NCBI RefSeq assembly: GCF_963921235.1
Contig: NC_086107.1
Coordinates: 105,402,001-105,466,000 of the forward strand
DNA from: Mobula hypostoma
Taxonomy: Eukaryota
Length of the DNA stretch: 64,000 nucleotides
Direction of reading: 5' to 3'
The position numbers were made by a program, and so were the translations under genes. A model generated the notes under the pieces. The model was given only the letters and a program-made list of their open reading frames with translations, searched no databases and had not been told where the DNA came from. Positions 22,770 through 64,000 of the stretch are shown one piece after another (within the stretch, counting starts at the first letter, position 1; each line of letters opens with the position of its first letter).

Positions 22770-25700
22770 CACCTGAACCCGAAGGGGACCAATATCCTGG
22801 CGGGTAAGTTTAATAGAGCTGTTAGGGAGGGTTTAAACTAATTTGGCAGGGGGATGGGAACCGGAATGATAGAGCAGAGGAAGGGGAAAACAGAAATAAA
22901 TCTAAGATAGTGAGCAGTAAAGATGTCAGGAAAGACAGGCTGGTGACGGGGCAAATTTGTAGCCATTGGGATGAGTTGCAGTGCAATAAAGTTGCAGTGT
23001 AATCAAAGCAAAAAGTACCAAATACTGGTCTTAAGGTGTTATACTTAAATGCACGCAGCATAAGGAATAAAGTGGATGATCTTGTCATACAGCTACAGAT
23101 TGGCAGGTATGATATTGCGGCCATCACTGAGACCTGGCTAAAGGATGCATGTCTCTGGGAGCTGAACGTCCAAGGATACACGGTGTATCAGAAGGATAGG
23201 AAGGTAGGCAGAGGGGGAGGCTTGGCTTTACTGGTAAGAAATGATATTAAATCATTAGGAAGAGGTGATATAGAATTGGAAGGTGCAGAATCTTTATGGG
23301 TTGAGCTAAGAAATTGCAGGGGTAAAAGGACCCTGATGGCAGTTTTTTATAGGCCTCCAAACAGCTGCAGTGATGTGGACTACAAATTACAACTGGAAAT
23401 AGAAAAGGCTTGTCAGAAGGGCAGAGTTATGATAATTGTGGGGGATTTTAACATGCGAGTGGATTGGGAAAATCAGGTCGGCAATGGATCTCAAGAGAGA
23501 GAATTAGTAGAATGTCTGCGAGAAGGCTTTTTAGAACAGCTTGTTGTTGAGCCCACTAGGGGATCAGCTGTACTGGATTGGGTATTGTGTAATGAACCGG
23601 AGGTGATTAGAGAGATTGAGGTGAAGGAACCCTTAGGAGACAGTGATCATAACATGATTGAGTTCACTGAGAAATTTGAAAAAGAGAAGCCGAAATCTGA
23701 TGTGTCGGAGTTTCAGTGGAGTAAAGGAAATTACAGTGGCATGAGAGAGAAACTGGCCAAAGTTGACTGGAAAGGGACACTGGCGGGAAAGACGGCAGAG
23801 CAGCAGTGGCTGAAGTTTATGCGAGAAGTGAGGAAGGTGCAAGACAGGTATATTCCAAAAATGAAGAAATTTTCAAATGGAAAAAGGATGCAACCATGGC
23901 TGACGAGAGAAGTCAAAGCCAAAGTTAAAGCAAAGGAGAGGGCATACAAGCAAGCAAAAATTAGTGGGAAGACAGAGGATTGGGAAGTTTTTAAAAGCTT
24001 ACCAAAGAAAACTAAGAAGGTCATTAAGAGGGAAAAGATTAACTATGAAAGGAAGCTAGCAAATAATATCAAAGAGGATACTAAAAGCTTTTTCAAGTAC
24101 ATAAAGAGTAAAAGACAGGTGAGAGTAGATATAGGACCAATAGAAAATGATGCTGGAGAAATTGTAATGGGAGATAAGGAGATGGTGGAGGAACTGAACG
24201 AGTATTTTGCATCAGTCTTCACTGAGGAAGACATCAGCAGTATACTGGACACTCAAGGGTGTCAGGGAAGAGAAATGTGTGCAGCCACAATTACAACAGA
24301 GAAAGTACTCAGGAAGCTGAATAGTCTAAAGGTAGATAAATCTCCCGGACCAGAAGGAATGCACCCTCGTGTTCTGAAGGAAGTAGCTGTGGAGATTGTG
24401 GAGGCATTAGCGATGATCTTTCAAAAGTCGATAGATTCTGGCATGGTTCCGGAGCATTGGAAGATTGGAAATGTCACCCCGCTATTTAAGAAGGGGGCAA
24501 GGAAGCAAAAAGGAAATTATAGACCTGTTAGCTTGACATCGGTGGTTGGGAAGTTGTTGGAGTCGATTGTCAAGGATGAGGTTACAGAGTACCTGGAGGC
24601 ATATGACAAGATAGGCAGAACTCAGCATGGATTCCTTAAAGGAAAATCCTGCCTGACAAACCTATTACAATTTTTTGAGGAAATTACAAGTAGGCTAGAC
24701 AAGGGAGATGCAGTGGATGTTGTATATTTGGATTTTCAGAAGGCCTTTGACAAGGTGCCACACATGAGGCTACTTAACAAGATAAGAGCCCATGGAATTA
24801 CGGGAAAGTTACATACGTGGATAGAGCGTTGGCTGATTGGCAAGAAACAGAGAGTGGAAATAAAGGGATCCTGTTCTGGTTGGCTGCTGGTTACCAGTAG
24901 TGTTCCACAGGGGTCTGTGTTGGGGCCGCTTCTTTTTACATTGTACATCAACGATTTGGATTATGGAATAGATAGCTTTGTGTCTAAGATTGCTGTCGAT
25001 AGGAAGATAGGTGGAGGGGCTGGTAGTGCTGAGGAAATGGAGAGACTGCAGAGAGATTTGGATAGATTGGAAGAATGGGCAAAGAAGTGGCAAATGAAAT
25101 ACAATGTTGGAAAGTGTATGGTTATGCACTTTGGCAGAAGAAATAAATGGGCAGACTATTATTTAAATGGGGAAAGAATTCAAACTTCTGAGATGTAGCG
25201 GGACTTGGAAGTCCTCGTGCAGGATACCCTTAAAGTTAACCTCCAGGTTGAGTCAGTGGTGAAGAAGGCAAATGCAATGTTGGCATTCATTTCTAGAGGA
25301 ATAGAGTATAGGAGCAGGGATGTGATGTTGAGGCTCTATAAGGCGCTGGTGAGACCTCACTTGGAGTACTGTGGGCAGTTTTGGTCTCCTTATTTAGGAA
25401 AGGATGTGCTGACGTTGGAAAGGGTACAGAGAAGATCCACTAGAATGATTCTGGGAATGAGAGGGTTAACATATGAGGAACGTTTGTCCGCTCTTGGATT
25501 GTATTCCTTGGAGTTTAGAAGAATGAGGGGAGACCTTATAGAAACATTTCGAATGTTGAAAGGCATGGACAGAGTGGATGTGGCAAAGTTGTTTCCCATG
25601 ATGGGGGAGTCTAGTACGAGAGGATATGACTTAAGGATTGAAGGGCGCCCATTCAGAACAGAAATGCGAAGAAATTTTTTTAGTCAGAGGGTGGTGAACC

Positions 25701-25921
25701 TATGGAATTTGTTGCCACGGGCTGCAGTGGAGGCCAAGTCATTGGGTGCATTTAAGGCAGAGATTGATAGGTATCTGAGTAGCCAGGGCATCAAAGGTTA
25801 TGGTGAAAAGGCGGGGGAGTGGGACTAAACGGGAGAATGGATCAGCTCATGATAAAGTGGCGGAGCAGACTCGATGGGCCGAATGTCTGACTTCTGCTCC
25901 TTTGTCTTATGGTCTTATGGG
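22770..25921 (+). mobile_element. CR1 LINE, 5'-truncated: ORF1 esterase tail, nearly complete ORF2 (APE + RT) and 3' tail
   Basis: ORF 23036-25198 has APE motifs (YLNARS, ITETW, GDFN, SDH) and RT motifs (NYRPVSLTS, QHGF, DFQKAFD, VPQGSVLGP). It continues in frame as 25205-25828 after a TAG. ORF1 end HLNPKGTNILAG; (TCTTATGG)n tail. The catalytic FADD motif reads IAVD. Confidence 0.95.
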
Positions 25922-40496: not shown

Positions 40497-40820
40497 AGTA
40501 CTGAGGGAGTATCTCACTGTTGGAGGGACGGTACTGAGGGAGTATCACACTGTCGGAGGGACGGTACTGAGGGAGTGTCTCACTGTCGGAGGGACGGTAC
40601 TGAGGGAGTGTCTCACTGTCAGAGGGACAGTACTGAGGGAGTGTCTCACTGTCAGAGGGACGGTACCGAGGGAGCACCTCACTGTCGGAGGGACGGTACC
40701 GAGGGAGCGCCGCACTGTCGGAGGGACGGTACCAAGGGAGCGCCGCACTGTTGCAGGGACGGTACCGAGGGAGCGCCGCACTGTCGGAGGGACAGTACCG
40801 AGGGAGTGTCTCAATGTCAG
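40497..40820. repeat. 33-bp minisatellite, ~10 units
   Basis: Unit GTAC(T/C)GAGGGAGYGYCKCACTGTCGGAGGGACG; gives 11-aa periodic spurious ORFs. Confidence 0.95.
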
Positions 40821-41160
40821 ATGTGAGATGCTTTTTATCTTTTCTGAGGAAGGGTTCCTCAGACCAAATCATTAACCAATTTCTCTATCCACAGAAGCTG
40901 CTTGAATGGCTGAGCTCTTCAGCATTCTTGTCTTTGTTACCAGCTTTTGTTTGCTTGTGGACGTTTACCGCTCTAGGCAAGAGGAAACAGGGATCTCTCG
41001 ACCTTTCATGGCCCCTCCTGTTCAGCTTTGTCTGCAGTGTAAACACAGTATATTCAGATTGTAACAGATCCTTTATGAAATCATCCTAACTGTTTTTCAT
41101 TGTGCTGGTCTCCTCCTGCTTATAATTGTCATTGAAGGAAACAGTGGCGGTCTCCTTCGG

Positions 41161-41250
41161 TATATAAAGTGTAAGGCGTGATCAGAAGGTGCAGAAGCAT
41201 ACAACCCACAGCCACCTTCCTCAGTCACAGAAGGGCAACAGAGTGTAAGT
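41161..41250 (+). promoter_or_regulatory. TATA box and non-coding first exon of the parvalbumin-like gene
   Basis: TATATAAAG at 41161-41169 in repeat-free sequence, followed ~80 nt later by a consensus donor |GTAAGT at 41245; lies about 1 kb upstream of the ATG exon. Confidence 0.65.
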
Positions 41251-41920
41251 ACTGTTTTTAACTGATCTGAAACATACCATCGTACTGTTTTATTGTTTGC
41301 ATGGAAGAGTTGTCATTGGAATTATTAAGAATAGAATCCAGTGTGAACTTTCTGCGGAGCAGGAGCTGATTAAATGCTCAGAGAGTTTTGACTTCAATTG
41401 TCCCGGAGAGATAAAGTTGCCCAGAACTATGGAGATGCTCCCTGCGATGTTTTATAGAGGCTGGAGGTTTGAGCCAATGGTGAGATAGGAAGGAAAATGC
41501 ACTTCACACAGGAGGGGTTAAACCAGCCGCAGACCCGAAGTGTTGACTGCTTCTCTTTCCACAGATGCTGCCTGACTTGCTGAGGGTCTCCCACATTTTC
41601 TGTTTTCGTTTCAGGCTTCGAGTGTTGATTTTTAATAAAGCAGCAGTGTATGGAACAGAGAGATCTTTGTGGGGAGAGTTAATGACCAATTGTCAGGAGC
41701 TCAGAGGAATTCATTTAGTGAATAAAGCAACATAAATAAACACAAGAGATTCTGCAGACGCTGGAAATCCAGAGTAACATGCACAAAATGCTGGTGGAAC
41801 TCAGCAGGAAAGGCAGCATCTTTGGAAATATATAAAGAGTTGGGGTTTTGGGACGAGACCCTTCACCAAAATTCTGGGGGAAGTCGGCAGGTCAGGCAGC
41901 ATCTATGGAGAGGAAGAAAC

Positions 41921-41957
41921 TGTCAACGTTTCAGGCCGAGACCCCTCATCAGGACTG
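41921..41957 (-). ncRNA. Minimal hammerhead ribozyme motif (Penelope pLTR) in parvalbumin intron 1
   Basis: Minus strand reads CAGTC-CTGATGA-GGGGTCTCGGCCT-GAAAC-GTT-GACA. Confidence 0.65.
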
Positions 41958-42235
41958 ACCTTCTGAGTTCCTCCAGCACTTTCTGAGACAAAATGCATGC
42001 TGAAGCTTAACAAAAAGTCTGCCGGGGGTACTCAGCAGGTCGAGCGGCACCTGTGGAGGTAAGCGAGTTGTCGACGTTTCGGGTTCGGCTTCCGCAGACG
42101 CTGCCCAGCCCACTGAGTGCCTCCAGCAGGTTGAGCACTGCTCCGGATTCCCGCAGACTGCAATCTCCCGTGCCACCGCCATACATGACAAAACTTATTC
42201 CAGATACACTGAGTCTGCTCACTTCCCATTACCAG

Positions 42236-42303
42236 GTTTACGATGAGCATCACCGATTTCCCCGTCGCTGGAGATGTCGCAGCGGAAATCTCCCTCTTCT
42301 CCC
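42236..42303 (+). pseudogene. pvalb: Parvalbumin-like exon 2 (ATG exon), 3' end degenerate
   Basis: Acceptor ttaccag| then 7 nt of UTR, then ATG AGC ATC ACC GAT TTC (MSITDFPVAGDVAAEISLFS), resembling the oncomodulin N-terminus MSITD..A.D.AA. There is no GT after coding nt 61. Confidence 0.65.
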
Positions 42304-42537
42304 TCCTCCGTTGTTGCTGTCCTTTTCTTTCATGGGGTTCCGGCGTCATCTGAAGTCTGCGTAACCTGGGGTCACTAATCCGAAGTCGTGCATCGCTTCA
42401 ATGCGCTCCCTTGGATCTGGGAGCACAGCACACGAGCAGTCCATTGAAACCTTCTGCAACGTACTAATCCCAGTCCGAACACTGTGCGGTTGGGCTTTCG
42501 TCTGGTAGATTCATGATCAGCATTTAAATGTATTATG

Positions 42538-43112
42538 CACTCAGTGGCCACTTTATTAGGTACACCTGCTCGTTAATGCAAATAGCTAATCAGCCAATCA
42601 GGTGGCAGCAACTCAATGCGTAAAAGCCCGCAGACATGGCCAAGAGGTTCAGTTGTTGTTCAGACTAGACATCAGAATGGGGAAGAAGTGTGATCTAAGT
42701 GACTTTGACTGTGGAATGATTGTTGGTGCCAGATGGGGTGGTTTGAGTATCTCAGAAACTGCTGATCTCCTGGGATTTTCACGCACAACAGTCTCTAGAG
42801 TTTAAAGAGAATGGTGAGAAAAACCAAAAAAAAATCTAGTGATTGGCAGCTCTGTGCCTTTTACCTGTGAAAATGCCAAGTTAATAAGAGAGGTCAGAGG
42901 AGAATTGTCTGACTGGTTCAAGCTGTCAGCAAAGTGACAGTAACTCAAATAGCCACACGTTACAACAGTGGTGTGCTGAAGAGCATCTCTGAACACACAA
43001 CGTGTCAGTCATTGAAGTAGATGGGCTACAGCAGCAGAAGACCATGAACGCACACTCAGTGGCCATTTTATATAGGGACAGGAGTTACCTAATAAAGTGG
43101 CCACTGAGTGTA
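42538..43112 (+). mobile_element. Non-autonomous Tc1-like transposon, most complete copy
   Basis: TIRs CACTCAGTGGCCACTTTATTAGGTA / TACCTAATAAAGTGGCCACTGAGTG followed by TA; transposase N-terminal HTH remnant MGKKCDLSDFDCGMIVGARWGGLSISETADLLGFSRTTVSRV. Confidence 0.88.
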
Positions 43113-43899
43113 TGTAGTAACATTATCTCTTTTTATCCAGCACTCCACACCTTGCTCTGTGTATTAGCTTCTTAAAGGTGAGCCTTATTTATTTATTAAT
43201 CACATGCACATCGGTACCTAGAGTGAAATGTGTCGCTTTGAATCAACTCAGTGAAGATTGCGCAGGGCAGGCCGCAAGTTGAGAGTTCTGGGCGCACTAA
43301 GCTGGCACCACACACCTGGTGCCAACCTAGCCTGTCCACGGCTCACTAACCCTAACTGCACGTCTTTGGACTGTGGGAGCGCCTCGAGGAAACCCACGCG
43401 GTCACGGGGAGGAGGTACAAACTCCTTACAGACGCTGGTGGGAATCGAACCCCGATCTTACAGCTCCAAAGCGTTGCGCTAACTGCTATTGTGCTGCCCA
43501 CTGAAGAATTCCTCTTGGTGTTTATTTCTTCTGACACTGAAGGAGGCCATCGAAGTTGGTAAACTGTTCTTCTCGTCTTGAGCCCTCAGCTCCTCAGTGG
43601 AGCCAAGGCCATCGATGACCTCGCATCTCCATCGACCTCGGAAGTCGATGGTGTGGTTGGAGTTCATCAACACTCCGGCAATCCACTGTACGGGGGATCG
43701 GCCTGTATAGCTGCACTCGAACCCTGTTGACTGACCTTACCTGTTTCCAGCTCTCATGATGGAGATGTAGGGTTGGACTTTGAGAGGCCAGTCAATGGGT
43801 AAATGGGTTTATTATTGTCACAAGATTCAGAGAACAAAATTGTTTTATTACATCAGTACCTCGAGGTAGTGCAAGGAAAAAATACCAACATAATGCAGA

Positions 43900-46210
43900 A
43901 TAAAGATGAAATATGATGGTAAGCAAACCAAAAATCTTGAAGAGGATACCAAAAGTTATTTTAGATATATAAAGAGTAAAAGAGGCAAGAATGGATATTG
44001 GATGTCACTGGAGAGGTAGTAATGGGGGATGAGAATAAATGACAAATAAGTATATTGCATCAGTCTTCACTGCGGAAGACACCAGCAGTACTCTAGAAAT
44101 TCAAGAGGGTCGAGAGGCAGGGTGAGTGTAGTTGCTATTACTAAGGAGAAAAGTTCTTCAGAAGCTGAAAGGTCTGAAGGTAGATGGACTACACCCCAGG
44201 GTTCTGAAAGAGGTAGCTGATGAGATTGTGGAGGCATTAGTAATGATCTTTCAAGAATCACAAGATTCTGGAATGGTTCCGGAGAACTGGAGAATTACAA
44301 ATTTCACTCCACTCTCAGAAGGGAGGGAGGCAGAAGAAAGTAAATTATAGGCCAGTTAGCCTGATTTCAGTGGTTGGGAAAATGTTGGAATCCGTTTTTA
44401 AGGATGAGGTTTTGTGTTACTTGGAGGGGCATCGTAAAGTAGCCCAAAGTCAGCATAAACACGAGGAATTGTGTTTCTGACGAAGGGTCTTGGCCCGAAA
44501 CGTCGACTGTACCTCTTCCTAGAGATGCTGCCTGGCCTGCTGCATTCACCAGCAACTTTAATGTGTGTTGCCCAAAGTCAGCATAGTTTCCTTAAGGGGA
44601 AATCTTCCCTGACAAATCTGTTGGAATTCTTAGAGGAAATAACAGGCAGGATAGACAAAGGAGAGTGGATGTTGTGTACTTGGATTTTCAGAAGGCCTTT
44701 GACAAGCTGCCACACATGAGGCTGCTTAACAAGATAAGAGCTCATGGTATTACAAGAAAGATACTAGCATAGACCTGAAGATTGGCTGATTGGCAGGAGG
44801 TGAAGAGTCGGAATAAAGGGGACTTATTCTTGTTGGTGTTCTGCATGGGTCGGTATTGGGACTGCTTCTTTTTACATTATATGTCAATGATTTGGATGAC
44901 GGAATTGATGGGTTTGTGGCCAAGTTTGTAGACAATATAAAGATAGGTGGAGGGCAGGTATTGTTGAGGAAGCAGAAAGACTTGGACATATTGGGAGAAT
45001 GGGCAAACAAGTGGCAGTTGGAATATAGTATAGGGAAATGTATGGTCATGCACTTTGATAGAAGGAGTAAAGGCATAAACTAATTTCTAAACGGGGAGAA
45101 AATTAAAAAATCAGAGGTGCAAAGGGACTTGGGAGTTCTTGTGCAGGATTCTCTAAAGTTTAACTTGCAGGTTGAGTCAGTGATGAGGAAGGCAAATACT
45201 TATACTTTATTGTCACCAAACAATTGATACTAGAACGTACAATCATCGCAGCGATATTTGATTCTGCGCTTTCCGCTCCCTGGATTATAAATATTAAAAA
45301 TAGTAAAAATTAGTAAATATTAAAAATTTTAATTATAAATCATAAATAGAAAATAGAAAAATGAGAAGTAAGGTAGTGCAAAAAACCGAGAGGCAGGTCC
45401 GGATATTTGGAGGGTACAGCCCAGATCCGGGTCAGGATCTGTTCAGCAGTCTTATCACAGTCGGAAAGAAGCTGTTCCCAAATCTGGCCGTACAAGCCTT
45501 CAAGCTCCTGAGCCTTCTCCCGGAGGGAAGAGGGACGAAAAGTGTGCTAGCTGGGTGGGTGGTGTCCTTGATGCAAATGCAATGTTTGCAAAATTTTCGA
45601 GAGGACTAGAATCTAAGAGCAAGGATGTGATGCTGAGGCTGTAAGGCACTGGTCAGACCTCACCTGGAGTATTGTGAGCAGTTTCGTGTCCCTACTGGCA
45701 TTGGAGAGAGTCCAGGGGAGGTACATGAGAATGATTCTGGGAATGAGAAGGCTAGCATATGAAGAGCATTTGATGGCTCCGGGTCTGTAATCACTGGAGT
45801 TTAGAAGAATTGGGGGGAGGATCGCATTGAGACCTATCGAATATTGAAAGGCCTAGACAGTGGATGTGGAGATGATGTTTCCATTAGTGGGTGAGTCTAG
45901 GACCAAGGGCCCACAACCTCAGGAATGAGAGATGTCCATTTAGAACAGAGATGAGGAGGAATCGCTTTAGCCAGAGGGTGGTTAATCTGTGGAATTCATT
46001 GCCACGAACAGCCATGGAGGCCAGGACATTGAGTAATTCAAAGCAGAGGTTGATTGGTTCTTGGTTAGTGAGGGCATCAAAGATTACATGTAGAAGACAG
46101 GAGAATGGGGTTGAGAGGGATAATAAGTCAGTCATGATGGAATGTTGGAGCAGACTCGATGGGCCGAGTGGCCTAATTCTGCTCTTATGACTTACGGTTT
46201 TATGGTCTAA
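43900..46210 (+). mobile_element. Degraded CR1 ORF2 in parvalbumin intron 2, interrupted by Penelope (44458-44569) and Rex/Babar (~45198-45570) insertions
   Basis: Fragments DGLHPRVLKE, QHSFLKGKSSLTNLLEF, LFTLYVNDLDDG..KFVD and FSQRVVNLWNSLP, plus a CR1 3' tail. Confidence 0.88.
44473..44509 (+). ncRNA. Minimal hammerhead ribozyme motif in a short TSD-flanked insertion
   Basis: GTTT-CTGACGA-A-GGGTCTTGGCCC-GAAAC-GTC-GACTG; core intact, stem I weakened. Confidence 0.65.
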
Positions 46211-46766
46211 AGTTCTACGGTTAAGGAGCAGGTAGATTGTGAAGCCAAGACTCCATTTTATTGTACAAGGGGATCATTCAATAGTTTGATAACGTGGATC
46301 CGAAGCTGACCTTGAGCCTGGTGGTTTGTCCTTTCAGGCTTTTGCCCGATGGGAGGGGAAGAATATAGAATGTCCAGAGTGGGAGGGGCCCTTGATGCCA
46401 GCTCCCAGCAGGACAATCCCATCTCCCATCCATCCCCTTGCCCATTTCCTTATTTTCTGTAGCTCTGCAACTCATTCCATCTCTCATTGACCCAGCCATT
46501 CTCCTTGCGTTGATTTTGTTCTTCACATATATTAAGGCGGGTCTGTTTTAACTACCACTGCATTTTGGGGATGCGGGAGGAAGCCAGGACATCCAACTGG
46601 TCCCAGTGAGAGCATGCAAACTCCAGAGAAACAGCAAAGGAGTTTGGGATCCAACGAGGATCCCTGGAGTTCTGAGGCATTACCCAATGCACCTCCAGTT
46701 CCAAACTCTGAGCAACTCAAAACTTTCCTCCAATGCACTTCCGTTAATGGCTTTGCCCTCTTCCAG

Positions 46767-46899
46767 ATCCGGGCTCCTTCCACTTCAAGAAATTTTCTGA
46801 AACTTCCGGTCTCGCCAAGAAATCTCCTGAAGAGATCACGAAAATGTTCACCATTCTCGACGACGATCGAAGTGGTTTCATAGAGAAGAGAGAGCTCAG
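46767..46899 (+). CDS. pvalb: Parvalbumin-like exon 3 (AB domain and CD EF-hand loop)
   Basis: ttccag|AT...AG|gtaggc, 133 nt, phase 1 to 2. Translates (D)[43 protein letters not shown](R), with a canonical CD loop DxDxSGFIExxE. Confidence 0.93.
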
Positions 46900-47034
46900 G
46901 TAGGCAACTCTTAGTTTTCCCTTAAGCACTGACATGAAATCACAAGAGTTGAGAGCACTGAAGAGTGGAAGGGGGGAGTATCATGGAAATCACGTGAGGT
47001 CATGGATAGTGCTCGGGATGTACAAGAACGCACA

Positions 47035-48170
47035 AAGTGCAGAAGAGGTTCACCAGGATGTTGCCTGGATTGGAGAGTATTAACTATGAGGAGAAGCTCA
47101 AAAGTCAAGAGGTTGTGTTGCAACTTTATAAAACTCTGATTAGGCCACACTTGGAGTATTACATACAGTTCTGGTCGCCTCACTACAGGAAGGATGTTGA
47201 GGCTTTGGAGAGGGTGCAGAAGAGGTTTAGCAGGATGCTGCCTGGTTTAGAGGGTATGTGCTATTATGAGAGGCTGGATAAACTTAGGTTGTTTTCTCTG
47301 GAGCAGTGGTGGCAGAGGGGAGATCTAATAGAGGTTTATAAGATTATGAGAGGCAGCGATAGAGTAGACAGGGAGTATCTGTTTCCCAGGGTAGAGATGT
47401 CTAATACCAGAGGGCATGCATTGAAGGTGAGAGGGGTAGGTTCAAAGGGGATGTGAGGGGTAAGTTTTTTACTCAGAGAGTGGTGGATGCCTGGAATGTG
47501 CTGCCTGGTATGGTGGAAGAGGCAAATACATTAGAGGCTTTTAAGAGACTTTTGGATAGACACATGGATGTAAGGAAGATGGAGGGATATGGACATGGTG
47601 TAGGTAGGAGGGATTAGTGTTTGTGGGCATTTTCGATTTGATTTTTAGCTGGTTCAGCACAACATTTGTGGGCCAAATGACCTGTGTTCCTGTGCTGTAC
47701 TGTTGTAAGTTGGACAGACTTAAAGGCAGAAGGGGTGACCTGATAGATCTATTTATAATTATGAGAGCTATGGAGTGGGTAGATAGTGTTTTTGTTACAG
47801 ATGAAATTGTCAATCAGTAGGACGCCTTTAAGCTGTAAAGGATGCAAGAAAGATTGATGGGATTTTGGAGGACTTAAGTTATAAGGGGAGGCTGGATAGG
47901 CTGGGACATCTCTCATTGGAATATAGGAGCCTAAGAGATATAGAAAACCATGAGGGACATGGATAAGATGGATGTCCACAATCTTTTGTCCAGAGTAGGA
48001 AGGTATAAATGTATAGATTTAAGGTAAGAGGGTAAGTCTTAAAAGGGACCAGAGGAGAAACATTTTCACACGGCAGATGATGGAAAGAAGGAACAAATTG
48101 CTGGAGACAGGTTGAAAAGCCATTTATATAGGTTAATGGATAGAAATGTGTTGGAGGGATATGGGCCTCA
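47035..48170 (+). mobile_element. Stacked CR1 3' fragments in parvalbumin intron 3
   Basis: ORF 47037-47456 (LIRPHLEYYIQFWSPH..RGDLIEVYKIM) followed by further degenerate copies. Confidence 0.85.
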
Positions 48171-49223
48171 AGAATCAGAATCAGGTTTAATAGCACTGGC
48201 ATATGTCATGTAATTTGTTACCTTTGTGGCAGCAATACATAACAATAGACAAAAACATGAATTACAGTAAGTATATATATTATTTATACTAAATAAGTTG
48301 TGCAAAAATAGAAACTTTAAACATAGTGAGGTTCAATCTCCATTCAGAAATTGGACGGCAGAGAGGAAGAAGCTGTACCTGGATCACTGAGTGTGTGCTT
48401 TTGTCGCAAGGCGTCTGTGGAGGCCTAGTCATTGGGTATATTTGAAGTGGAGGTTGATTGGTTCTTGATTAGTAAGAATGTCAACGGTTACAGGGAGAAG
48501 GCAGGAGAATGGGATTGAGGGAGAAAATAAATCAGCCATGATGGAACAGCAGAGCAAACTCGATGGAGCAAATGGCCTCGTGACCTGTACCAACTAGTGG
48601 AGTGGTGTCGCAGCAACAACCTGGCACTCAATGTCAGTAAGATTAAAGAGCTGATTGTGGACTTCAGGGAGGATGAGATGAAAGAACATGTATCAATCCT
48701 CACAGGAGGATCAGAAGTGGAGAGAGTGAGCAGATTCAAGTTCCTAGGTGTCAAGATCTCTGAGGATCTAACCTGGTCCCAACATATTGATGCAGCTATA
48801 AAGAAAGCAAGACAGCGGCTATACTTCATTTGGAGTTTGAAGAGATTTGGTATGTCAACAAGTACACGCAAAAACTTCTATAGATGTACCATGGAGAGCA
48901 TTCTGACAGGCTGCATCACTGTCTGGTATGGAGGGACTACTGCACAGGACCGAAAGAAGCTGCAGGGGGTTGTAAATTTAATTGGCTCCATCTTGGGTAC
49001 GAGCCTACAAAGTATACAGGATATCTTCAAGGAGCAGTGTCTCAGAATGGCAGCATCCATTATTAAGGACCTCCAGCACCCAGGACATGCCCTTTTCTCA
49101 CTGTTACCATCAGGTAAGAGATACAGAAGCCTGAAGGCACACACTCAGCGATTCAGGAACAGCTCCTTCCCCTCTGCCATCCGATTCCTAAATGGACATT
49201 GAACCCATGAGCACTACCTCAAC

Positions 49224-49228
<5 letters not shown>

Positions 49229-49263
<35 letters not shown>
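49229..49263. repeat. (TA)n microsatellite
   Basis: Perfect TA run next to the MITE end. Confidence 0.95.
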
Positions 49264-49267
<4 letters not shown>

Positions 49268-49580
49268 GATTGATAAGTCTGTGGCCTAAGGTAGAAGGAG
49301 ATGGGTTATACAGGTCCCGTTACATGCACATGCAGGTCAACTCTTTGAGCGATTATGCAGAAAGTTTGAAGTTAATAACTCATCTCCTTCTACCTTAGGC
49401 CACGAACTTATCAATCACCCCTGCTGTGGACACTTTCTGGAGGTCCAGGATCCGTATGCTCCATGACCGCTGGACTAAGTGTGTACATGTAGGAGGGGAC
49501 TATGTTGAAAAATAAATGTGCTAGGTTTTCTAAAATTGACTCCTTCGACCTTAGGCCACAAACTTATCAATCACCCCTCG
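49263..49580 (+). mobile_element. Mariner-derived MITE, second copy, inserted beside (TA)n
   Basis: Same TIRs; encodes RWTKCVHVGGDYVEK*; flanked by a (TA)n tract on the left and TA on the right. Confidence 0.82.
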
Positions 49581-51002
49581 TATAAAAATTGATTTACTCA
49601 TTTATTTATTTTTACTTTTTTTCTTCTATGTTATGTATTGCATTTGACTGCTGCTACTAAGTTAACAAATTTCACGACACATGCTGGTGACAATAAACCT
49701 GATTCTGATTCGGATAATTCTGCTCCTACATCTTACGAAGATTCGTGAGACAAGTTTCTTTGCACAGAGAGTGTAGGTGCCCAGAATACCGCCAGGGAGA
49801 GTGGTGGAAGTGTTTAAGAGGCATTTTAATGGTCATGTAAACAGGCAGTGAATGGAGGGAAACAGATCACTTACAGGGAGATGGGATTAGTTAGACTGGC
49901 AGTAAGGTCAGCAAAGACATGATGGACTGAATGGCCTCTTCCTGTTCTGTGTTGTGTAATGATCAGGTTAGTATGTCATGGAAAAAGAAATGGGGAACGT
50001 TGTCCTCTATCACAGGCAGCTTGTAGTACAAGACTGAGAGCCTTGACACAATGCTACAGGATGTCAGTGAGTCCACCCCGGGCTAATGTCCACAAGTCTG
50101 TTCCGTACTTAGAGAGGAACAGCAGCTAAAGTTTATCGCAGTGACTCCTGCCATCCACAGTCAGGAGGATAGCATAAACATTGATATCTCAAACTTCTGG
50201 TAATTCACCTCCCCAACCCTTCACCATTTCCCCATTCCCGTTCCCCTCTCTCACCTTAACTCCTTACCTGCCCATCATCTCCCTCAAGTGCTCCTCCCCC
50301 TTCCCGTTCTTCCACAGTCCTACCCTCTCCTACCAGATTCCCCTTCTCCAGCCCTGTCTCTCTTTCATCAATCCATTTCCCATTTTCTTTACTTCACCCC
50401 CTCCCCGTCTCCCAGTTTCACCCACCACCTGCTGCCTTGTACGTCTTCCTCCCCTCCCCCCACCTTCTCACTTTGACCTCTTCCCTTCCTTTTCAGTCCC
50501 GATGAAGGGTCTCGGCCCGAACCGTCGACGGTTTACTCGTTCCCATAGATGCTGCCTGGCCTGCTGTGTTCCTCCAGCACTTTGTGTGCCTCGATAGTCA
50601 CGAGGGTGTTTGGTAGATGCAGAGGGTTATGCGAGTCAGCAAGGCAAGTGAAGTTTGGGGCAAAGGATCACAGCAGCCGCCATCTTGTTAACAGGCAGAG
50701 CAGGCTTGAGGGTTGAACAACTTACCACTCCTCCTGTGCTTTTGCGTGAGAACGCAGCACAGATACTGAACAGAGAGAAGAGGCTGGAAAGTTATGTGAG
50801 GGGCCAGTTTCATAACGGTTCCCGAAAAACTGTTATTCATGAAAAATGGAACTATAACCATTGACAGGATATCCAACCTTAAAGTCAGGCCCAAGACACA
50901 CATGCATGAACCATGTGCACACGTATGGTTGATCCACTATAGTGCTGTACATACATGTCCCCCTCTGTCCGGGTTTGCTGATAGACCCTCTTATGTTTGA
51001 AG

Positions 51003-51111
51003 GCTCTTCCTTCGGTGTTTCTGCCCGCAAGCCGGGAGCTGAGCGACGCTGAGACAGACAGCTTTGTCTCCGTTGGAGATGAAAATGGCGACGGCAGGAT
51101 TGATTGTGCTG
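51003..51111 (+). pseudogene. pvalb: Parvalbumin-like exon 4 (EF loop) with 1-nt deletion
   Basis: tttgaag|G...G|gtaagt, 109 nt instead of the usual 110. Reads LFLRCFCPQA in one frame and RELSDAETDSFVSVGDENGDGRIDCA in another; the unshifted frame hits TGA at 51040-51042. Confidence 0.9.
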
Positions 51112-51206
51112 GTAAGTTCTCAAGTATTTCTATTCACATTTATAATCCCGATTCACAGCCTGCATATAAATTACCGAAAGAATACTCGCCTTGGAAAGGG
51201 TGCAGA

Positions 51207-51839
51207 CTGACCCCCACTGGGGGAACCGGTCCCACACACACACACTGACCCTCACAGGGGGACAGGTCCCACACACACACTGACCCTCACTGGGGGAACA
51301 GGTCTCACACACACTGACCCTCACTGGGGGAACAGGTCCCACACACACACTGACTCTCACTGGGGGAACAGGTCCCACACCAACTGACCCTCACTGGGGG
51401 AACAGGTCTCACACACACTGACCCTCACTGGGGGAACAGGTCACACACACACTGACCCTCACTGGGGGAACAGGTCCCACACACACACTGACGCTCACTG
51501 GGGGAACCGGTCCCACACACACACTGACTCTCACTGGGGGAACAGGTCCCACACCAACTGACCCTCACTGGGGGAACAGGTCTCACACACACTGACCCTC
51601 ACTGGGGGAACAGGTCACACACACACTGACCCTCACTGGGGGAACAGGTCCCACACACACACTGACCCTCACTGGGGGAACAGGTCACACACACACACAC
51701 ACACACTGACCCTCACTGGGGGATCAGGTCCCACACACACACACTGACCCTCACTGGGGGAACAGGTCCCACACACACACACTGACCCTCACTGGGGGAA
51801 CAGGTCACACACACACACTGACCCTCACTGGGGGAACAG
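51207..51839. repeat. ~34-38-bp minisatellite, ~18 units, with internal (CA)n length variation
   Basis: Unit ACTGACCCTCACTGGGGGAACAGGTCC(CA)n; lies in parvalbumin intron 4. Confidence 0.95.
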
Positions 51840-52099
51840 AGAGAAAAACCCTACCGTGCTCATACTCTCCTCATAAGGTATGTTCTCCAACCCAGGCAGC
51901 ATCTGGGGATAGGGAAATGAGTGCCAGCTTTGCTGACTATGCACACATCCCGTCGGCGGAAGGGCTTGGAGCTGGATGAGGTCATGGTCACCTGTTGTCC
52001 CCACTGACCGTTTGTTGCATTGGGCTCTCTTGGAGGAGGGGCTGCGGCAGGATCGAAAATGAACACAAAATGGTGAAGTGAGTTGTTTTGGAATTGCAG

Positions 52100-52290
52100 A
52101 ATTCCAGAGTCTGGTAACCTCGATGGATCAAATTTGATGAAGATATCCCCCTATGCCGATACTCTCATCCTTCGACTGAACGCCCGTAAACATCTCTGCA
52201 ATTCTTCAAATCGATCAGCACTTATCAAGCTTTATCAAATGGACTGTCACTGTGCTCGAGGTGCTGGAATTATTTAATTGCAATAAAATC
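52100..52290 (+). CDS. pvalb: Parvalbumin-like exon 5 (C-terminus and 3' UTR)
   Basis: ttgcag|AA TTC CAG AGT CTG GTA gives (E)FQSLVTSMDQI*, with TGA at 52135-52137, matching the parvalbumin EFxxLV terminus; AATAAA at 52282. Confidence 0.85.
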
Positions 52291-59983: not shown

Positions 59984-61960
59984 CTAAGAGAAGTCAAGTT
60001 TGTACAATGAAACAAACCCATTGCCTTGAGTGACGATGAGGCTGTTATCATCGTTAACAGTAATGACACGAGGTTTGTGAAGTCCATTTCCTGTGTTCAA
60101 CAGCTCCTCCCTAAAAGTTCCATCTGACCAAAATAAAAGGATTCTATTTCGCTCAGTGACCAGGATATTGTCATTTACATCCGTGCAAATGCTATACGGT
60201 TTTATTGCACAATCCAGCCCGTTCAAAGTGATCTGCTCACAGACAGTGAGGACCACCCCGTCCCTGTCGAATATGACAATACATTTCTTCCCACTGTCGG
60301 CTACGATGAACTCCTCCGAAGAGTTGATCGCCAGGAAAAGAAACCTGACGCCTTCGTAGCCGTGCGGCTTGACCCTGCTGACCACGTGCCCGTCGACATC
60401 GTAGAGAGACAGGGAGCACAAGGCCCCCTCGCTCACCGCCACATACTCGTCTTCGTAGGCAGCGATGGGGTAACTGGACTCAGAACCACGCAGGAAGAGC
60501 TTCCTCAGAAAACCTCCGTCCAGCTCCAGAAAGTAGAGTTTGTTCCCCGCCGAGCAGGCAATAGTGTCGTCGCACACAGCAATGCTGCACGGGTCGTCGT
60601 CGTCATCGGGCAGCGAGATAGTCTGAATAAGGTGTCCAGCGTCCGTGAAGCATTTCAGACTGGAGTTCTCTTCATCCACGACGATGATGGTTCCATCGCG
60701 GGCAACGCTAACACCAGTCAACTTGGGATCGTACTCTTCGTGCGACAGCTCAGTGTTGAAGCTGAACATGTTCCGCACCTTTTGCTTGGGTTGAGGAACC
60801 GGAACGCTCGCCTGACGAGAATTGCCTGGACTCCTATGCTGCTCTGTTCTGGCTGGAGTAGTTTGGGCCCTAGGAATGGATTCATCCTCGAACGTGATGC
60901 TGAATAGGTTCGATTGAAAAATTTCTTTCTTTACTGATTCATTGACCTTTAGGCTGGGACTGGTTTTCTCTCCCGTGGGCACCTTCAGTGCTTGGACAGC
61001 GTTAACATGCTCTTCTACAATGGACTTCAGGCACACTATCTCTCTCGCCTGGCCAGACTGCAGGATGCGCTCGGCAAACTCCCTGGTCCCTTCCGCCTTC
61101 TTTATCTGGTGCTGAAGGTCCGCCTTGGCATTCCTGTACAACTCCTCCTGTTCCCTGACGTAATCGGCGAGGGTGGCCTTGACGGCGTCGCCTTGCTTGA
61201 TCAGGTTGTTTATGGCCTCTGTCAGGGTACTTTCGATCATTGACATCAGGGAGCACTCTGTAGCTTTCAGCCTGTTCCCTGCATCGCTGAGGCTGTCCTC
61301 CTGCTGGGCCAGTGACTGAAGCTCAGTATTCAGTCTTCCAATGAGCTTCGTCACTAAGGGTCTCGCGGTTTCCACTGCTCTAGCCACTGGCGTTTTTCTA
61401 TGCTGGGCATGAGAGCTCAAGCAACTGGTACAGATGGTGCTGCTGCAGGTGTTACAGAAGTAATCCACCAGCATTCTGGGATGTTGTTGGCAGTACACCT
61501 TCTTCTGCATCTTCACCTCGGCCTCACAGGGGCCCGAGCTGAATCCCGGCAGGCTCTTCAACACGTGGCCCGGGTTGCCCGCCATGTGCCTGACCTTGCA
61601 AGAGGGGCAGAGGTGAACGGAGCAGGTCTTGCACTGAGCTGCCGCAGAAGGCCTGTTCTTCCCCGCCGTGGCGCACAGGCCGCAGGCCGCCTCCTCGCTC
61701 TCCTGCGTCTGGAAGAGGTCCATAAGGCTGTTGATGTGAAAGTTGGTCTTTAGCTGGCTGACGCCGCCGCTCACGTCCACCTCGTCCCTGCACTCGGGAC
61801 AACGGATCCTTCTGTTTCTACTCACCATGCTTTCCAGGCAGTCAAAGCAATAGGTGTGGGCGCAGGGCAACATCTTCGGTTGCTTAAACCTATTAAAGCA
61901 GATCTTGCAGTTTAAAATATCATTTTGGATTTGATCTGCAATGGCTGATGATGTCGCCAT
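59984..61960 (-). CDS. TRIM-family E3 ubiquitin ligase (RING, two B-boxes, coiled coil, NHL-like beta-propeller), TRIM56-like, 658 aa, single coding exon
   Basis: Uninterrupted 658-aa ORF. C3HC4 RING at C18-C57 (CKIC..PCAHTYCFDC..CPEC), B-box1 (CGLC..CKTC..CPSC..H..H) and B-box2 (CQQH..FCNTC..CTSC..HAQH). These are followed by a helical coiled coil, a P/Q-rich linker and NHL-like repeats (GVSVARDGTIIVVD, PYSICTDVNDNILVTE, KPRVITVNDD). Kozak context atcATGG; splice acceptor (tctgtttcag|) 14 nt upstream of the ATG. Confidence 0.93.
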   Translation of the reverse strand: MATSSAIADQIQNDILNCKICFNRFKQPKMLPCAHTYCFDCLESMVSRNRRIRCPECRDEVDVSGGVSQLKTNFHINSLMDLFQTQESEEAACGLCATAGKNRPSAAAQCKTCSVHLCPSCKVRHMAGNPGHVLKSLPGFSSGPCEAEVKMQKKVYCQQHPRMLVDYFCNTCSSTICTSCLSSHAQHRKTPVARAVETARPLVTKLIGRLNTELQSLAQQEDSLSDAGNRLKATECSLMSMIESTLTEAINNLIKQGDAVKATLADYVREQEELYRNAKADLQHQIKKAEGTREFAERILQSGQAREIVCLKSIVEEHVNAVQALKVPTGEKTSPSLKVNESVKKEIFQSNLFSITFEDESIPRAQTTPARTEQHRSPGNSRQASVPVPQPKQKVRNMFSFNTELSHEEYDPKLTGVSVARDGTIIVVDEENSSLKCFTDAGHLIQTISLPDDDDDPCSIAVCDDTIACSAGNKLYFLELDGGFLRKLFLRGSESSYPIAAYEDEYVAVSEGALCSLSLYDVDGHVVSRVKPHGYEGVRFLFLAINSSEEFIVADSGKKCIVIFDRDGVVLTVCEQITLNGLDCAIKPYSICTDVNDNILVTERNRILLFWSDGTFREELLNTGNGLHKPRVITVNDDNSLIVTQGNGFVSLYKLDFS

Positions 61961-62029
61961 GATGAAAGCACAGCCTGAAACAGACGAGAACAGATGTTTG
62001 GTTATATAAAGCTGAGATGGCTTAGGTGA

Positions 62030-64000
62030 TTCTGAACGTCAATGTGCAGCAGATCCTACGCACTTCAGTCCCCCACCAAGAAAGCATCAAGGCTCTCTGG
62101 TTCTTTCTCGACAAAAGAACCGAACATTTCCCCTCCAGCACCACCCTCCTCTGTTGGTCCTCTTCCTCTGAATTTTTCCCTTCCGCTCCTCCCGCTTCCT
62201 CCAGATGCGAGGGGTAGCCCACACGGGTCCCAGCTATGCCTCCCTGTTTGTCGGCTATGTAGATCAGCCCGCATTTTAAGCCTTCCCAGGCAATACTCCC
62301 CAACTCTTCCTCCGCTACATTGACGACTGCATTGGCGCTGCTTCATGCACCTGTGCTGAGCTCGCCAATTTCGTCAACTTTGCCTCTAACTTCCACCCTG
62401 CCCTTAAGCTCACTTGGTCCATTTCTGATACCTTTCTCCCTTTATCTCGAGCTCTCTGTCTCCATCTCTGGAGACAAACTGTCAACTGACATCTTTTATA
62501 AACCTACTGATTCCCATGGCTACCTTGACTCTATACCACTACCCACCCTGTCCCCCTGTAAAAATGGCACTCCCTCTTCTCAATTCCTTCACCTCCACAT
62601 CTATTCCCAGGACACAGCCTTCCTTTCCAAATGTCCTCCTTCTTCAAAGACTGAGCTTTTCCTTCCTCTACTATTGATAATGCCCTCGCCCGCATCCCCT
62701 CCATTTCCTGAACATCTGCACTCACCCCATCTTCCCGTCACCTTATAGGCTGATTTATACTTCTGCACAGTAGCCTAAGCCGTAGCCTATGCAAGTGGCC
62801 TACGCCGTTGTGAGCATTTATACTTGTGCGTTGGTGTGTCTGCATCGCTCTGCAATTCACCGCCAAAACACTAGTTGGCGGTGGGGATTCTATGCCACTG
62901 CGTTGAGGTTCTTCGTGTTCAAACTCAGCACGAAGAAACTCAAACTTCAAACAATGGCAACTGAAACTGGAGGAGGATGAATTTTCTGTGGGCCACTGAG
63001 AGACATAGACGAGGAAGAGCATTTCAAATATTTTCGGATGTCGGCAGGTAGATTTGATGATTTGGTTCATCGTCTCCAACCATTTATTTCGCATCAGTGT
63101 ACGCACAGTATACTCAGAGACTGGCAATCTCCATTCGAGTTTTAGCTTCAGGTGGAAGTCAACAGGCTGTAGCAGCTAGCTACAAACTGGCGTCAAGCAC
63201 AGGGTCCTCCATAATTTCGGAGGTCTGTAAAGCTTTATGGAAAGCATTGCGGCCAGAGTTCCTTCCCTGCCCTTCAGTCAACCAATGGGAAGCTACTGCA
63301 GCGTAGGAGGAAATGCGATGCTACCAAGCGGACCAATCACAGTTGTTGCGGTCTGCGTCGCCACGATGCATAGTTACATTTTTGGGGAGGTGCGCGTCAG
63401 GCTACTGCGTAGGGTACGTAGCTACCTATGGCGTAGATTTGATGCAGAAGTATAAATTGGCCTTAACAGTGATAGTTCCTCTTGTCCTCGTCTACCACCC
63501 CATGAGCCTTTGCATCCAACACATCATTCTGTGTAACTTCCACCATCTCCAAAGAGATATTTACCTCCCCTCCTGCTCCGCTTTCCCTTGGGATAGCTCC
63601 CTCCGTAATTCCCTTTTCCATTCGTTCTCTCCCCCACCCCCACAAATCTCCCACCCAGCACTTATCCCTGCCAGTGGCCCAAGTGCTACACCTGCCCATT
63701 CACCTCCTCCCTCCCCTCCATTCAGGGCCCCAAACAGTCCTTCCAGGCGAGGCAACACCTCACCTGCGAATCTGCTGGGATCGTGCTCGCGAGGCAGCCT
63801 GCTCTACGTTGGAGAGACCCGTCGTAAACTGGGGAGGGGGGGGCTGCTTCAGCGGGTGCCTCCGCTTCATCCACCCAAAGCAGAACTTCCCGGTGGCCAA
63901 ACATTCCCATTCCCGTTCCCATTCTGACATGTCAGTCCACAGCCTCCTCTTGTGCCAAGATGAGGCCACCCTCAGGGTGGAGGGGCAACACCTTATATCC
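62030..64000 (+). mobile_element. Penelope-like element (RT and GIY-YIG remnants), interrupted by a Harbinger element
   Basis: GV..THGSQL/GPSYA, FLRYIDDC and LSTDIFYKPTDSHGYL RT remnants; LLYVGETRRKLG GIY-YIG remnant after 63464. Confidence 0.85.
62747..63463 (+). mobile_element. PIF/Harbinger-superfamily internally deleted transposon
   Basis: TIRs AGGCTGATTTATACTTCTGC / GCAGAAGTATAAATTGGCCT; transposase remnant [53 protein letters not shown]. Confidence 0.82.

What the first reader, a model, noticed from the sequence alone, without database searches (positions are those of the whole stretch)
41161..52290. Hidden five-exon oncomodulin-like parvalbumin gene, apparently caught in pseudogenization
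Seen: TATA, four coding exons with correct order and (where intact) phase, stop codon and AATAAA, scattered across 11 kb of repeats and not called by the ORF track. Known: parvalbumin genes have a non-coding exon 1 and coding exons of about 61/133/110 nt plus a short last exon. MSITD, ETSGL and (A)RELS.AET resemble the oncomodulin/thymic lineage more than alpha-parvalbumin. Inference: three independent lesions with most splice signals still intact suggest recent loss of a divergent parvalbumin paralog.
Basis: partly seen in the sequence, partly recalled or inferred. Interest (0 to 1): 0.75.

Follow-up and report, generated by a model that had tools for sequence, protein, structure and literature searches.

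The report
Dead parvalbumin gene in devil rays
A calcium-binding (parvalbumin) gene that other sharks and rays keep is broken in three places in this ray; one break is shared with the giant manta, so the gene likely died in their common ancestor, and the manta copy looks whole because a second small deletion re-opened its reading frame.

Summary
The five-exon parvalbumin gene is real, and so are its lesions. The window is a close relative of Mobula birostris (exon 3 95% identical).

Contigs of sequencing runs show three breaks: a 19-nt deletion in exon 2, a GT-to-GA exon-2 donor, and a 1-nt deletion in exon 4. The manta-like organism B shares the 1-nt deletion and adds a 5-nt deletion. That re-opens the frame in RefSeq XP_072129098 but removes Arg75, present in 120 of 120 other parvalbumins.

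At least 9 amino-acid-changing differences against 2.6% non-coding divergence fit neutral drift since the two species split. A probable RNA run covers exons 1, 3 and 4 but not exon 2.

The gene is neither alpha-parvalbumin nor the shark oncomodulin. It belongs to a separate cartilaginous-fish lineage, intact in 18 other species and probably orthologous to elephant-shark '1941'.

Verdict: an ordinary genus-level gene loss, with one unusual feature: a compensated frameshift whose uncompensated intermediate survives in a sister species. The scan had not noted it before.

The parts
41161..41169 (+). TATA-like box; use as the promoter not shown
   Evidence: Sequence. No difference listed there in organism B, but the probable RNA run covers 41138-41158 upstream of it.
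41190..41244 (+). Non-coding exon 1 (5' end uncertain, may start further upstream); intact GT donor at 41245
   Evidence: RNA-run depth 16.3 at 41138-41239 and 5.1 at 41262.
42236..42284 (+). Broken exon 2: intact acceptor, ATG at 42243, Leu7 changed to Pro (42262), 19 nt missing behind 42278 between two copies of a 7-nt direct repeat
   Evidence: Organism B contig has 19 more letters behind 42278 and T at 42262; the DNA run of organism A matches the window exactly. Leu7 in 18 of 18 orthologues.
42285..42286 (+). Dead exon-2 donor (GA where organism B has GT)
   Evidence: table 3, row 42286; context.
42535..43113 (.). Element with 28-nt terminal inverted repeats in intron 2 (Tc1/mariner-type by my recall); one of many intronic repeats
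   Evidence: pair I10; very high laid depth.
46767..46899 (+). Exon 3, 133 nt, open, with a canonical CD EF-hand loop; Ile47 changed to Met gives the first in-frame ATG of a message lacking exon 2
   Evidence: RNA depth arithmetic gives 62 nt covered in the bin where 62 exon bases lie.
51003..51111 (+). Exon 4, 109 nt: one base missing at about 51032-51033, premature stop at 51040-51042; the EF-hand loop after it is out of frame
   Evidence: Shared with organism B, which lacks 5 more bases at 51036. RNA arithmetic 111 nt versus 109.
51206..51839 (.). 34-36-nt minisatellite in intron 4
52100..52137 (+). Coding part of exon 5 with normal stop; the four extra C-terminal residues are shared with stingray orthologues and are not a lesion
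   Evidence: Not included in the read laying.
52282..52287 (+). AATAAA poly(A) signal (a second at 52330)
   Evidence: use not tested.

Best explanation
This is a broken five-exon gene of a cartilaginous-fish parvalbumin lineage that is neither alpha nor, most likely, oncomodulin; it carries three disabling lesions, likely died in the common ancestor of this ray and the giant manta, and would make no parvalbumin protein. Shown: the exons, the three lesions in read-derived contigs, the shared 1-nt deletion, and the further 5-nt deletion in organism B and the manta protein. Inferred order: (1) the 1-nt exon-4 deletion fixed before the two species split; (2) both copies then drifted without purifying selection; (3) this lineage lost 19 nt of exon 2 by slippage between two 7-nt direct repeats and mutated the exon-2 donor; (4) the manta lineage lost 5 more bases, re-opening the frame by chance while deleting Arg75 and Leu77, which gives a RefSeq model that is probably not a working protein. 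Inferred present state: the locus is still transcribed and spliced, probably skipping exon 2 and its ATG, so at most a 31-residue peptide ending at the premature stop could be made.
For: Lesions in contigs: organism A DNA contig 41956-42560 has 0 differences; no added base at exon 4 in any of the 3 informative runs of 4 laid. Organism B contig 50559-51190 has exactly 5 gap letters, at 51036, and its changes at 42262, 42278 and 46806 match the named manta protein P0001. Neutrality: at least 9 nonsynonymous differences over 220-234 sites in 99 codons versus 96 of 3708 non-coding differences (ratio about 1.5); omega 0.3 gives P about 1e-4, omega 1 gives P 0.12-0.16. Changes hit conserved sites: L7 118 of 120, R76 120 of 120, L78 119 of 120, G90 116 of 120; S34 and G94 18 of 18 orthologues (Met counted as 1). 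AlphaFold with the same 30 rows: stingray orthologue pLDDT 91.0, manta protein 72.5. Full-length orthologue models in 18 other species. Lineage: clade support 99/96, outside alpha and oncomodulin; on a contig of the same length as alpha-parvalbumin in two stingrays, while shark oncomodulins lie on other contigs.
Against: No whole genome was available, so a second intact copy is excluded only indirectly: one contig at each exon point in a run of depth 6-11, and contigs drop rare variants. The organism A DNA run may be the assembly's own sample. Splice joints were cut from the table, so exon skipping is read from depths; a short exon-2 piece under about 40 nt might not have been laid, and the run's RNA status is a guess. 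Synonymous differences could not be counted, so the neutral rate comes from introns. The link to elephant-shark '1941' is weak alone (85/68), and by identity it is the top outside match only for the skate orthologue (57%), not for the window (50%). Grouping with all oncomodulins (p-AU 0.069) or with alpha (0.060) is not formally rejected. AlphaFold confidence is not a stability measurement.
Confidence: 0.85

Rival explanations
1. The gene is dead only in this species. The manta lineage passed through the frameshifted state and regained a working, two-residue-shorter parvalbumin through the compensating 5-nt deletion.
For: Organism B has an intact exon 2 and donor and an open frame. RefSeq calls it protein-coding. 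Both EF-hand loops keep their acidic ligands. Loss of the R75-E81 bridge left the overall fold of rat alpha-parvalbumin unchanged (PMC9774829 section 3.5.3). Compensatory frameshift pairs occur in vertebrate genes (PMC8935012).
Against: Of the 8 differing positions, 5 changed on the manta branch alone and one on both, several at conserved sites. R76 and L78 are gone. The model's confidence falls from 91.0 to 72.5. The nonsynonymous rate matches neutral. No RNA of organism B was laid.
Confidence: 0.08
2. The locus is now kept for its RNA or for a short one-EF-hand peptide, not as a parvalbumin.
For: A probable RNA contig covers exons 1, 3 and 4 at equal depth; the exon 1, 3, 4 and 5 splice sites are intact; a derived ATG in exon 3 opens a 31-codon frame holding the CD loop.
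Against: The stop lies 69 nt before the last junction, which by the usual rule (recalled) marks the message for decay. The promoter and exon 1 differ from organism B at 10 listed sites in 41138-41239, above the 2.6% background. Residual transcription is common in young pseudogenes (general knowledge).
Confidence: 0.04
3. The gene is the ray's oncomodulin, or a recent duplicate of it.
For: 2 of 3 signature residues (E17, D52) in the lineage. RefSeq names several orthologues 'oncomodulin-like' or 'thymic CPV3-like'. The larger tree has the wider group as a weak sister of oncomodulins (82.5/75). Grouping with all oncomodulins is not rejected (p-AU 0.069).
Against: Sharks have a separate 3-of-3 oncomodulin clade (100/99) on other chromosomes. 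Position 69 is R or K in 0 of 18 orthologues. Union with shark oncomodulins is rejected at p-AU 0.037. E17 also occurs in shark non-oncomodulin parvalbumins.
Confidence: 0.07
4. The breaks are sequencing or assembly errors, or one damaged haplotype, and the species has a working gene.
For: The exon-4 break is a missing base in a short homopolymer, the classic long-read error. The best DNA run may be the assembly's own sample.
Against: The same base is missing in another species and in a probable RNA run from another sample code. The exon-2 deletion and donor change are in read-derived contigs, with no second contig laid at those sites.
Confidence: 0.03

Closest known systems
Mobula birostris 'parvalbumin, thymic-like' XP_072129098.1 (P0001)
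   Same: Direct orthologue, 90 of 99 aligned residues identical; organism B, which matches it, shares the 1-nt exon-4 deletion.
   Different: Intact exon 2 and donor; an extra 5-nt deletion re-opens the frame and removes R75 and L77; annotated as protein-coding.
Full-length elasmobranch orthologues: Hypanus XP_059809202, Hemitrygon XP_072890033, Pristis XP_051898804, Amblyraja XP_032869237, Carcharodon XP_041033663 and others
   Same: One clade with the window (99/96); shared Ser or Cys in place of the core Phe30 in 18 of 18.
   Different: They are full-length models with R75 and L7 kept. I found no report of their function or tissue.
[quoted passage not shown]
   Same: Sister to the clade in both trees (85/68 alone; 96/91 with one unnamed protein); same linkage to alpha-parvalbumin as inferred for the stingray orthologues.
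   Different: Only 50-57% identical; orthology is probable, not proven; it is intact.
Oncomodulin (mammalian OCM, chicken CPV3, teleost pvalb8/9, shark XP_041062350)
   Same: Same fold and exon plan, Cys18, acidic residues at 17 and 52; about 50% identity.
   Different: No R/K69, separate clade, different chromosome in sharks.
Pairs of compensatory frameshifting mutations (Biba et al. 2022, PMC8935012)
   Same: Two nearby deletions (1 + 5 nt) restore the frame in a gene under relaxed selection.
   Different: Their high-confidence set kept only 1-2-nt indels with no observed intermediate. Here the uncompensated intermediate survives in a sister species, and the restored frame is probably not functional.

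Membership tests
Parvalbumin family | Sequence homology to parvalbumins with AB, CD and EF domains | tested here: met
   Top PDB hits of exon 3 are all parvalbumins (E 5e-10); 73-91% identity to named ray and shark parvalbumins.
   133 nt exact; 109 = 110 minus 1; 42 = 61 minus 19.
Parvalbumin family | Ca2+ ligands D51, D53, E62 and D90, D92, E101, and the R75-E81 bridge | tested here: met
   Codons present in the window, but those after the exon-4 break are out of frame; the manta protein lacks R75.
Functional parvalbumin gene | Continuous open frame and working splice sites | tested here: not met
   19-nt deletion, GA donor, 1-nt deletion with stop at 51040.
Alpha-parvalbumin | 12 signature residues (PMC9774829 section 3.6.1) | tested here: not met
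   0 of 12 in the window and in all orthologues; ray alpha-parvalbumin is a separate gene.
Oncomodulin | Signature (D/E)17, (D/E/N)52, (R/K)69 (PMC9774829 section 3.6.2) | tested here: not met
   2 of 3 in the lineage; position 69 is C, F, Y, H or N in 18 of 18 orthologues. The paper notes that none of the three is fully conserved.
Oncomodulin | Groups with oncomodulins in a tree | tested here: inconclusive
   Union with shark oncomodulins rejected (p-AU 0.037); union with all oncomodulins 17.5 lnL worse but p-AU 0.069.
Oncomodulin | [quoted passage not shown] | tested here: not met
Gene order not examined.
Mainstream non-alpha/non-oncomodulin (beta-2, avian thymic hormone type) | Signature L65, N69, K107 | tested here: not met
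   1 of 3 in the window; shark beta-2 genes form their own clade.
Elephant-shark '1941' lineage | Sister grouping plus linkage to alpha-parvalbumin | tested here: inconclusive
Unitary (unprocessed, no working copy) pseudogene | Introns kept and disabling lesions real | tested here: met
Unitary (unprocessed, no working copy) pseudogene | No intact duplicate elsewhere in the genome | tested here: inconclusive
   No genome held. No second contig of 88% likeness or more at the exon points listed in the organism A run; no second copy in the window.

The most novel reading that the evidence does not exclude
A gene killed by a frameshift in the ancestor of devil rays was brought back in the giant manta by a second deletion and now makes a working parvalbumin without the otherwise invariant Arg75. 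The window's species would preserve the dead intermediate, giving a vertebrate gene resurrection with both stages alive today.
Probability: 0.08. Interest if true: 0.7.

Novelty: new member of a known kind. Interest (0 to 1): 0.36.

Why it matters
Gene loss by itself is ordinary, but this case has three uses. First, it flags a RefSeq protein (XP_072129098) as a probable pseudogene whose frame was re-opened by chance. Second, it is a contig-checked pair of compensating frameshifts with the intermediate still present in a sister species, a state that the main survey filtered out. Third, it shows that a barely studied parvalbumin lineage, kept in 18 shark and ray species including the filter-feeding basking shark, was dispensable in devil rays. 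Mantas are reported to have a markedly reduced electrosensory system (PMC4732448, citing Chu and Wen 1979), and a parvalbumin is among the top ampulla transcripts in catshark (PMC11979771). That paper names the alpha gene, however, and the tissue of this paralog is unknown, so any sensory link is untested.

Tried and rejected
Own-genome search: no genome held.

Organism C run X9: it laid only repeats and none of the exon points listed, so the loss could not be dated with a closer outgroup.

No RNA holder was listed as on record; the RNA rows are guesses.

Idea that a transposon insertion split exon 2: rejected. No remainder of exon 2 was found in the window, and organism B shows a 19-nt deletion plus a point change instead.

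Ser at position 31 and the longer C-terminus as lesions: rejected, since orthologues share them.

A tandem parvalbumin cluster in the window: none.

Filter feeding as a simple cause: the basking shark keeps a full-length orthologue.

Expression of the catshark orthologue in ampullae: the supplement of PMC11979771 could not be read; it bears directly on the sensory idea.

Literature: searches listed no paper on this loss; the library lacks most subscription papers. One search gave no usable divergence date. PMC13320880 had one irrelevant passage. Earlier scan notes had nothing on this gene.
Full report
Observation. The region holds a parvalbumin gene on the + strand: a TATA-like box at 41161, a non-coding exon ending at 41244, exon 2 with acceptor before 42236 and ATG at 42243, exon 3 at 46767-46899 (133 nt), exon 4 at 51003-51111 (109 nt), exon 5 from 52100 with its stop at 52135-52137, and AATAAA at 52282. 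The introns are filled with LINE, SINE, inverted-repeat and minisatellite sequence. Exon 3 matches solved parvalbumins best and three ray proteins at 84-95%. tblastn with 13 parvalbumins (output read for 4) finds the coding pieces in order and no second parvalbumin in the 64 kb.

Origin. The best match is Mobula birostris XP_072129098, so the window is a close devil-ray relative; I did not determine the species. No whole genome is held. The protein searches list a 50%-identical paralog for Mobula hypostoma but no orthologue for that species.

Lesions. I laid 4 of 24 listed runs on 41100-51190; exon 5 was left out to avoid the minisatellite. Run X1 (DNA, organism A, possibly the assembly's own sample) has a contig over 41956-42560 with 0 other letters and 0 gaps, so exon 2 reads as in the window. 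Run X5 (DNA, organism B) has 19 more letters behind 42278, T at 42286 and T at 42262. The window has therefore lost 19 nt between two copies of a 7-nt direct repeat (frame-breaking, 61 to 42 coding nt), its donor reads GA instead of GT, and Leu7 became Pro. In exon 4 one base is missing at about 51032-51033, with a stop at 51040. No run shows an added base there in table 4. The X5 contig over 50559-51190 has exactly five gap letters, at 51036. Organism B thus shares the 1-nt deletion and adds 5 nt. This gives the two-residue gap in the manta protein, which organism B also matches at 42262, 42278 and 46806. The tool warned that some differences were not counted for X1, X5 and X9 because so much repeat was laid, and 312 substitution rows were not shown. 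Run X9 (organism C) was uninformative.

Order of events. The simplest reading is one deletion in the common ancestor, then separate decay. A single 6-nt deletion in the manta would not explain the same missing base in both species. Over 99 aligned codons the two copies differ at 8 positions, needing at least 9 nonsynonymous changes on 220-234 sites. Non-coding divergence from eight X5 contigs is 96 of 3708 (2.6%). The ratio is about 1.5; omega 0.3 gives P about 1e-4, omega 0.5 gives 0.003-0.004, and omega 1 gives 0.12-0.16. Synonymous sites could not be counted. The changes hit conserved positions (Met counted as 1; 120 sequences, isoforms included): L7 118 of 120, R76 120 of 120, L78 119 of 120, G90 116 of 120, and S34 and G94 18 of 18 orthologues. 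The R75-E81 pair is part of the conserved core, although removing it left the overall fold of rat alpha-parvalbumin unchanged (PMC9774829 section 3.5.3). AlphaFold with the same 30 rows gives pLDDT 91.0 for the Hemitrygon orthologue and 72.5 for the manta protein; this is a hint, not a stability measurement.

Transcription. Run X10 (organism A, another sample code, RNA by the tool's guess) has depth 16.3 at ten points in 41138-41239, at 46806 and at 51036. It has depth 0 at 42262, 42286, 42310 and at intron point 46742. Bin arithmetic gives 62 nt where 62 exon-3 bases lie and 111 nt where exon 4 has 109, the pattern of a spliced message. The joint rows were cut from the table, so skipping of exon 2 is inferred, and a very short exon-2 piece could have been missed. 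A message of exons 1, 3, 4 and 5 has its first ATG at the derived Met47 and ends after 31 codons, 69 nt before the last junction. Coverage upstream of the TATA box, and about 90 nt of extra depth in the first bin, are unexplained.

Which parvalbumin. By the signatures of Dijkstra and Kondo (PMC9774829 section 3.6) the lineage scores 0 of 12 alpha, 2 of 3 oncomodulin and mostly 0-1 of 3 for the other class. Trees of 55 rows and 27 rows (LG+G4, 109 columns) place the window and the manta copy inside one elasmobranch clade (99/96). Elephant-shark '1941' is its sister (85/68), then an unnamed protein (96/91) and elephant-shark '6256' (94/92). Group labels of unnamed rows are mine, from signatures. 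Shark oncomodulins form a separate clade (100/99). Forcing the clade with them gives p-AU 0.037; with all oncomodulins 0.069; with alpha 0.060. Contig lengths agree: orthologue and alpha-parvalbumin share a 42,863,366-nt contig in Hypanus and a 41,429,085-nt contig in Hemitrygon, whereas in Carcharodon the orthologue (33.1 Mb) and the oncomodulin/beta pair (137.5 Mb) are apart. The paper places '1941' as non-alpha/non-oncomodulin in the alpha-bearing region (section 3.3) and says it did not look deeply at cartilaginous fishes. 'Thymic-like' and 'oncomodulin-like' are automatic names.

What it works like and what it is. The ancestral product would have worked like any parvalbumin, a two-site Ca2+ buffer (family knowledge; not measured for this lineage). 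It is a member of the parvalbumin family, fails the alpha test and two of three oncomodulin tests, and is now a pseudogene.

Papers, as seen. PMC9774829: abstract, 12 passages, sections 3.3, 3.5 and 3.6 whole, supplement passages. PMC8935012: 12 passages. PMC11979771: one passage; supplement unreadable. PMC5429088: 12 passages. PMC4732448: 9 passages. PMC13320880: one passage, not relevant. Bellono et al. 2017 was seen only as cited by these. Searches listed nothing on this loss.

Verdict. A real, contig-confirmed loss of a little-studied parvalbumin in devil rays, older than the split from the manta lineage. It is a new member of a known kind. The compensated frameshift with a living intermediate, and the probably misleading RefSeq model, raise it a little above routine. 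Interest 0.36.

Noticed in passing
window 59984-62038 (-): Open 684-codon single-exon TRIM-NHL frame (RING, B-box, NHL by Pfam); the only other clear host gene seen in the window.
   Followed up: partly
window 23003-25828 (+): Young-looking LINE ORF2 (endonuclease and reverse transcriptase motifs by my reading): 731 + 209 codons separated by one stop.
   Followed up: no
window 41138-41239: Ten listed substitutions versus organism B in about 100 nt of promoter and exon 1, well above the 2.6% background; three are at CpG sites.
   Followed up: partly
window 41100-41436: The probable RNA run covers bases upstream of the TATA box, and about 90 nt of depth in this bin is unexplained; a further 5' exon or an upstream start is possible.
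   Followed up: partly
window 43141-43177 (+): 37-nt stretch in intron 2 with a pyrimidine-rich AG acceptor and a strong GT donor, seen by eye; possible cryptic exon.
   Followed up: no
window 40498-40818 and 51206-51839: Minisatellites of 33 nt (9.7 copies) and 34-36 nt (17.6 copies) just upstream of the gene and in intron 4.
   Followed up: no
proteins P0002-P0011, P0030-P0032, P0123-P0130: The whole lineage has Ser or Cys in place of the core Phe30 (18 of 18), and the CD loop carries Lys or Thr after the conserved Glu59; a distinct, apparently unstudied elasmobranch parvalbumin type.
   Followed up: partly
protein P0146: Unnamed parvalbumin that groups with this lineage and elephant-shark '1941' (96/91); source not looked up.
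   Followed up: no
proteins P0013, P0087, P0132: Ray proteins that sit in the shark beta-2 clade yet score 3 of 3 on the oncomodulin signature, which shows the signature alone can mislead in rays.
   Followed up: partly
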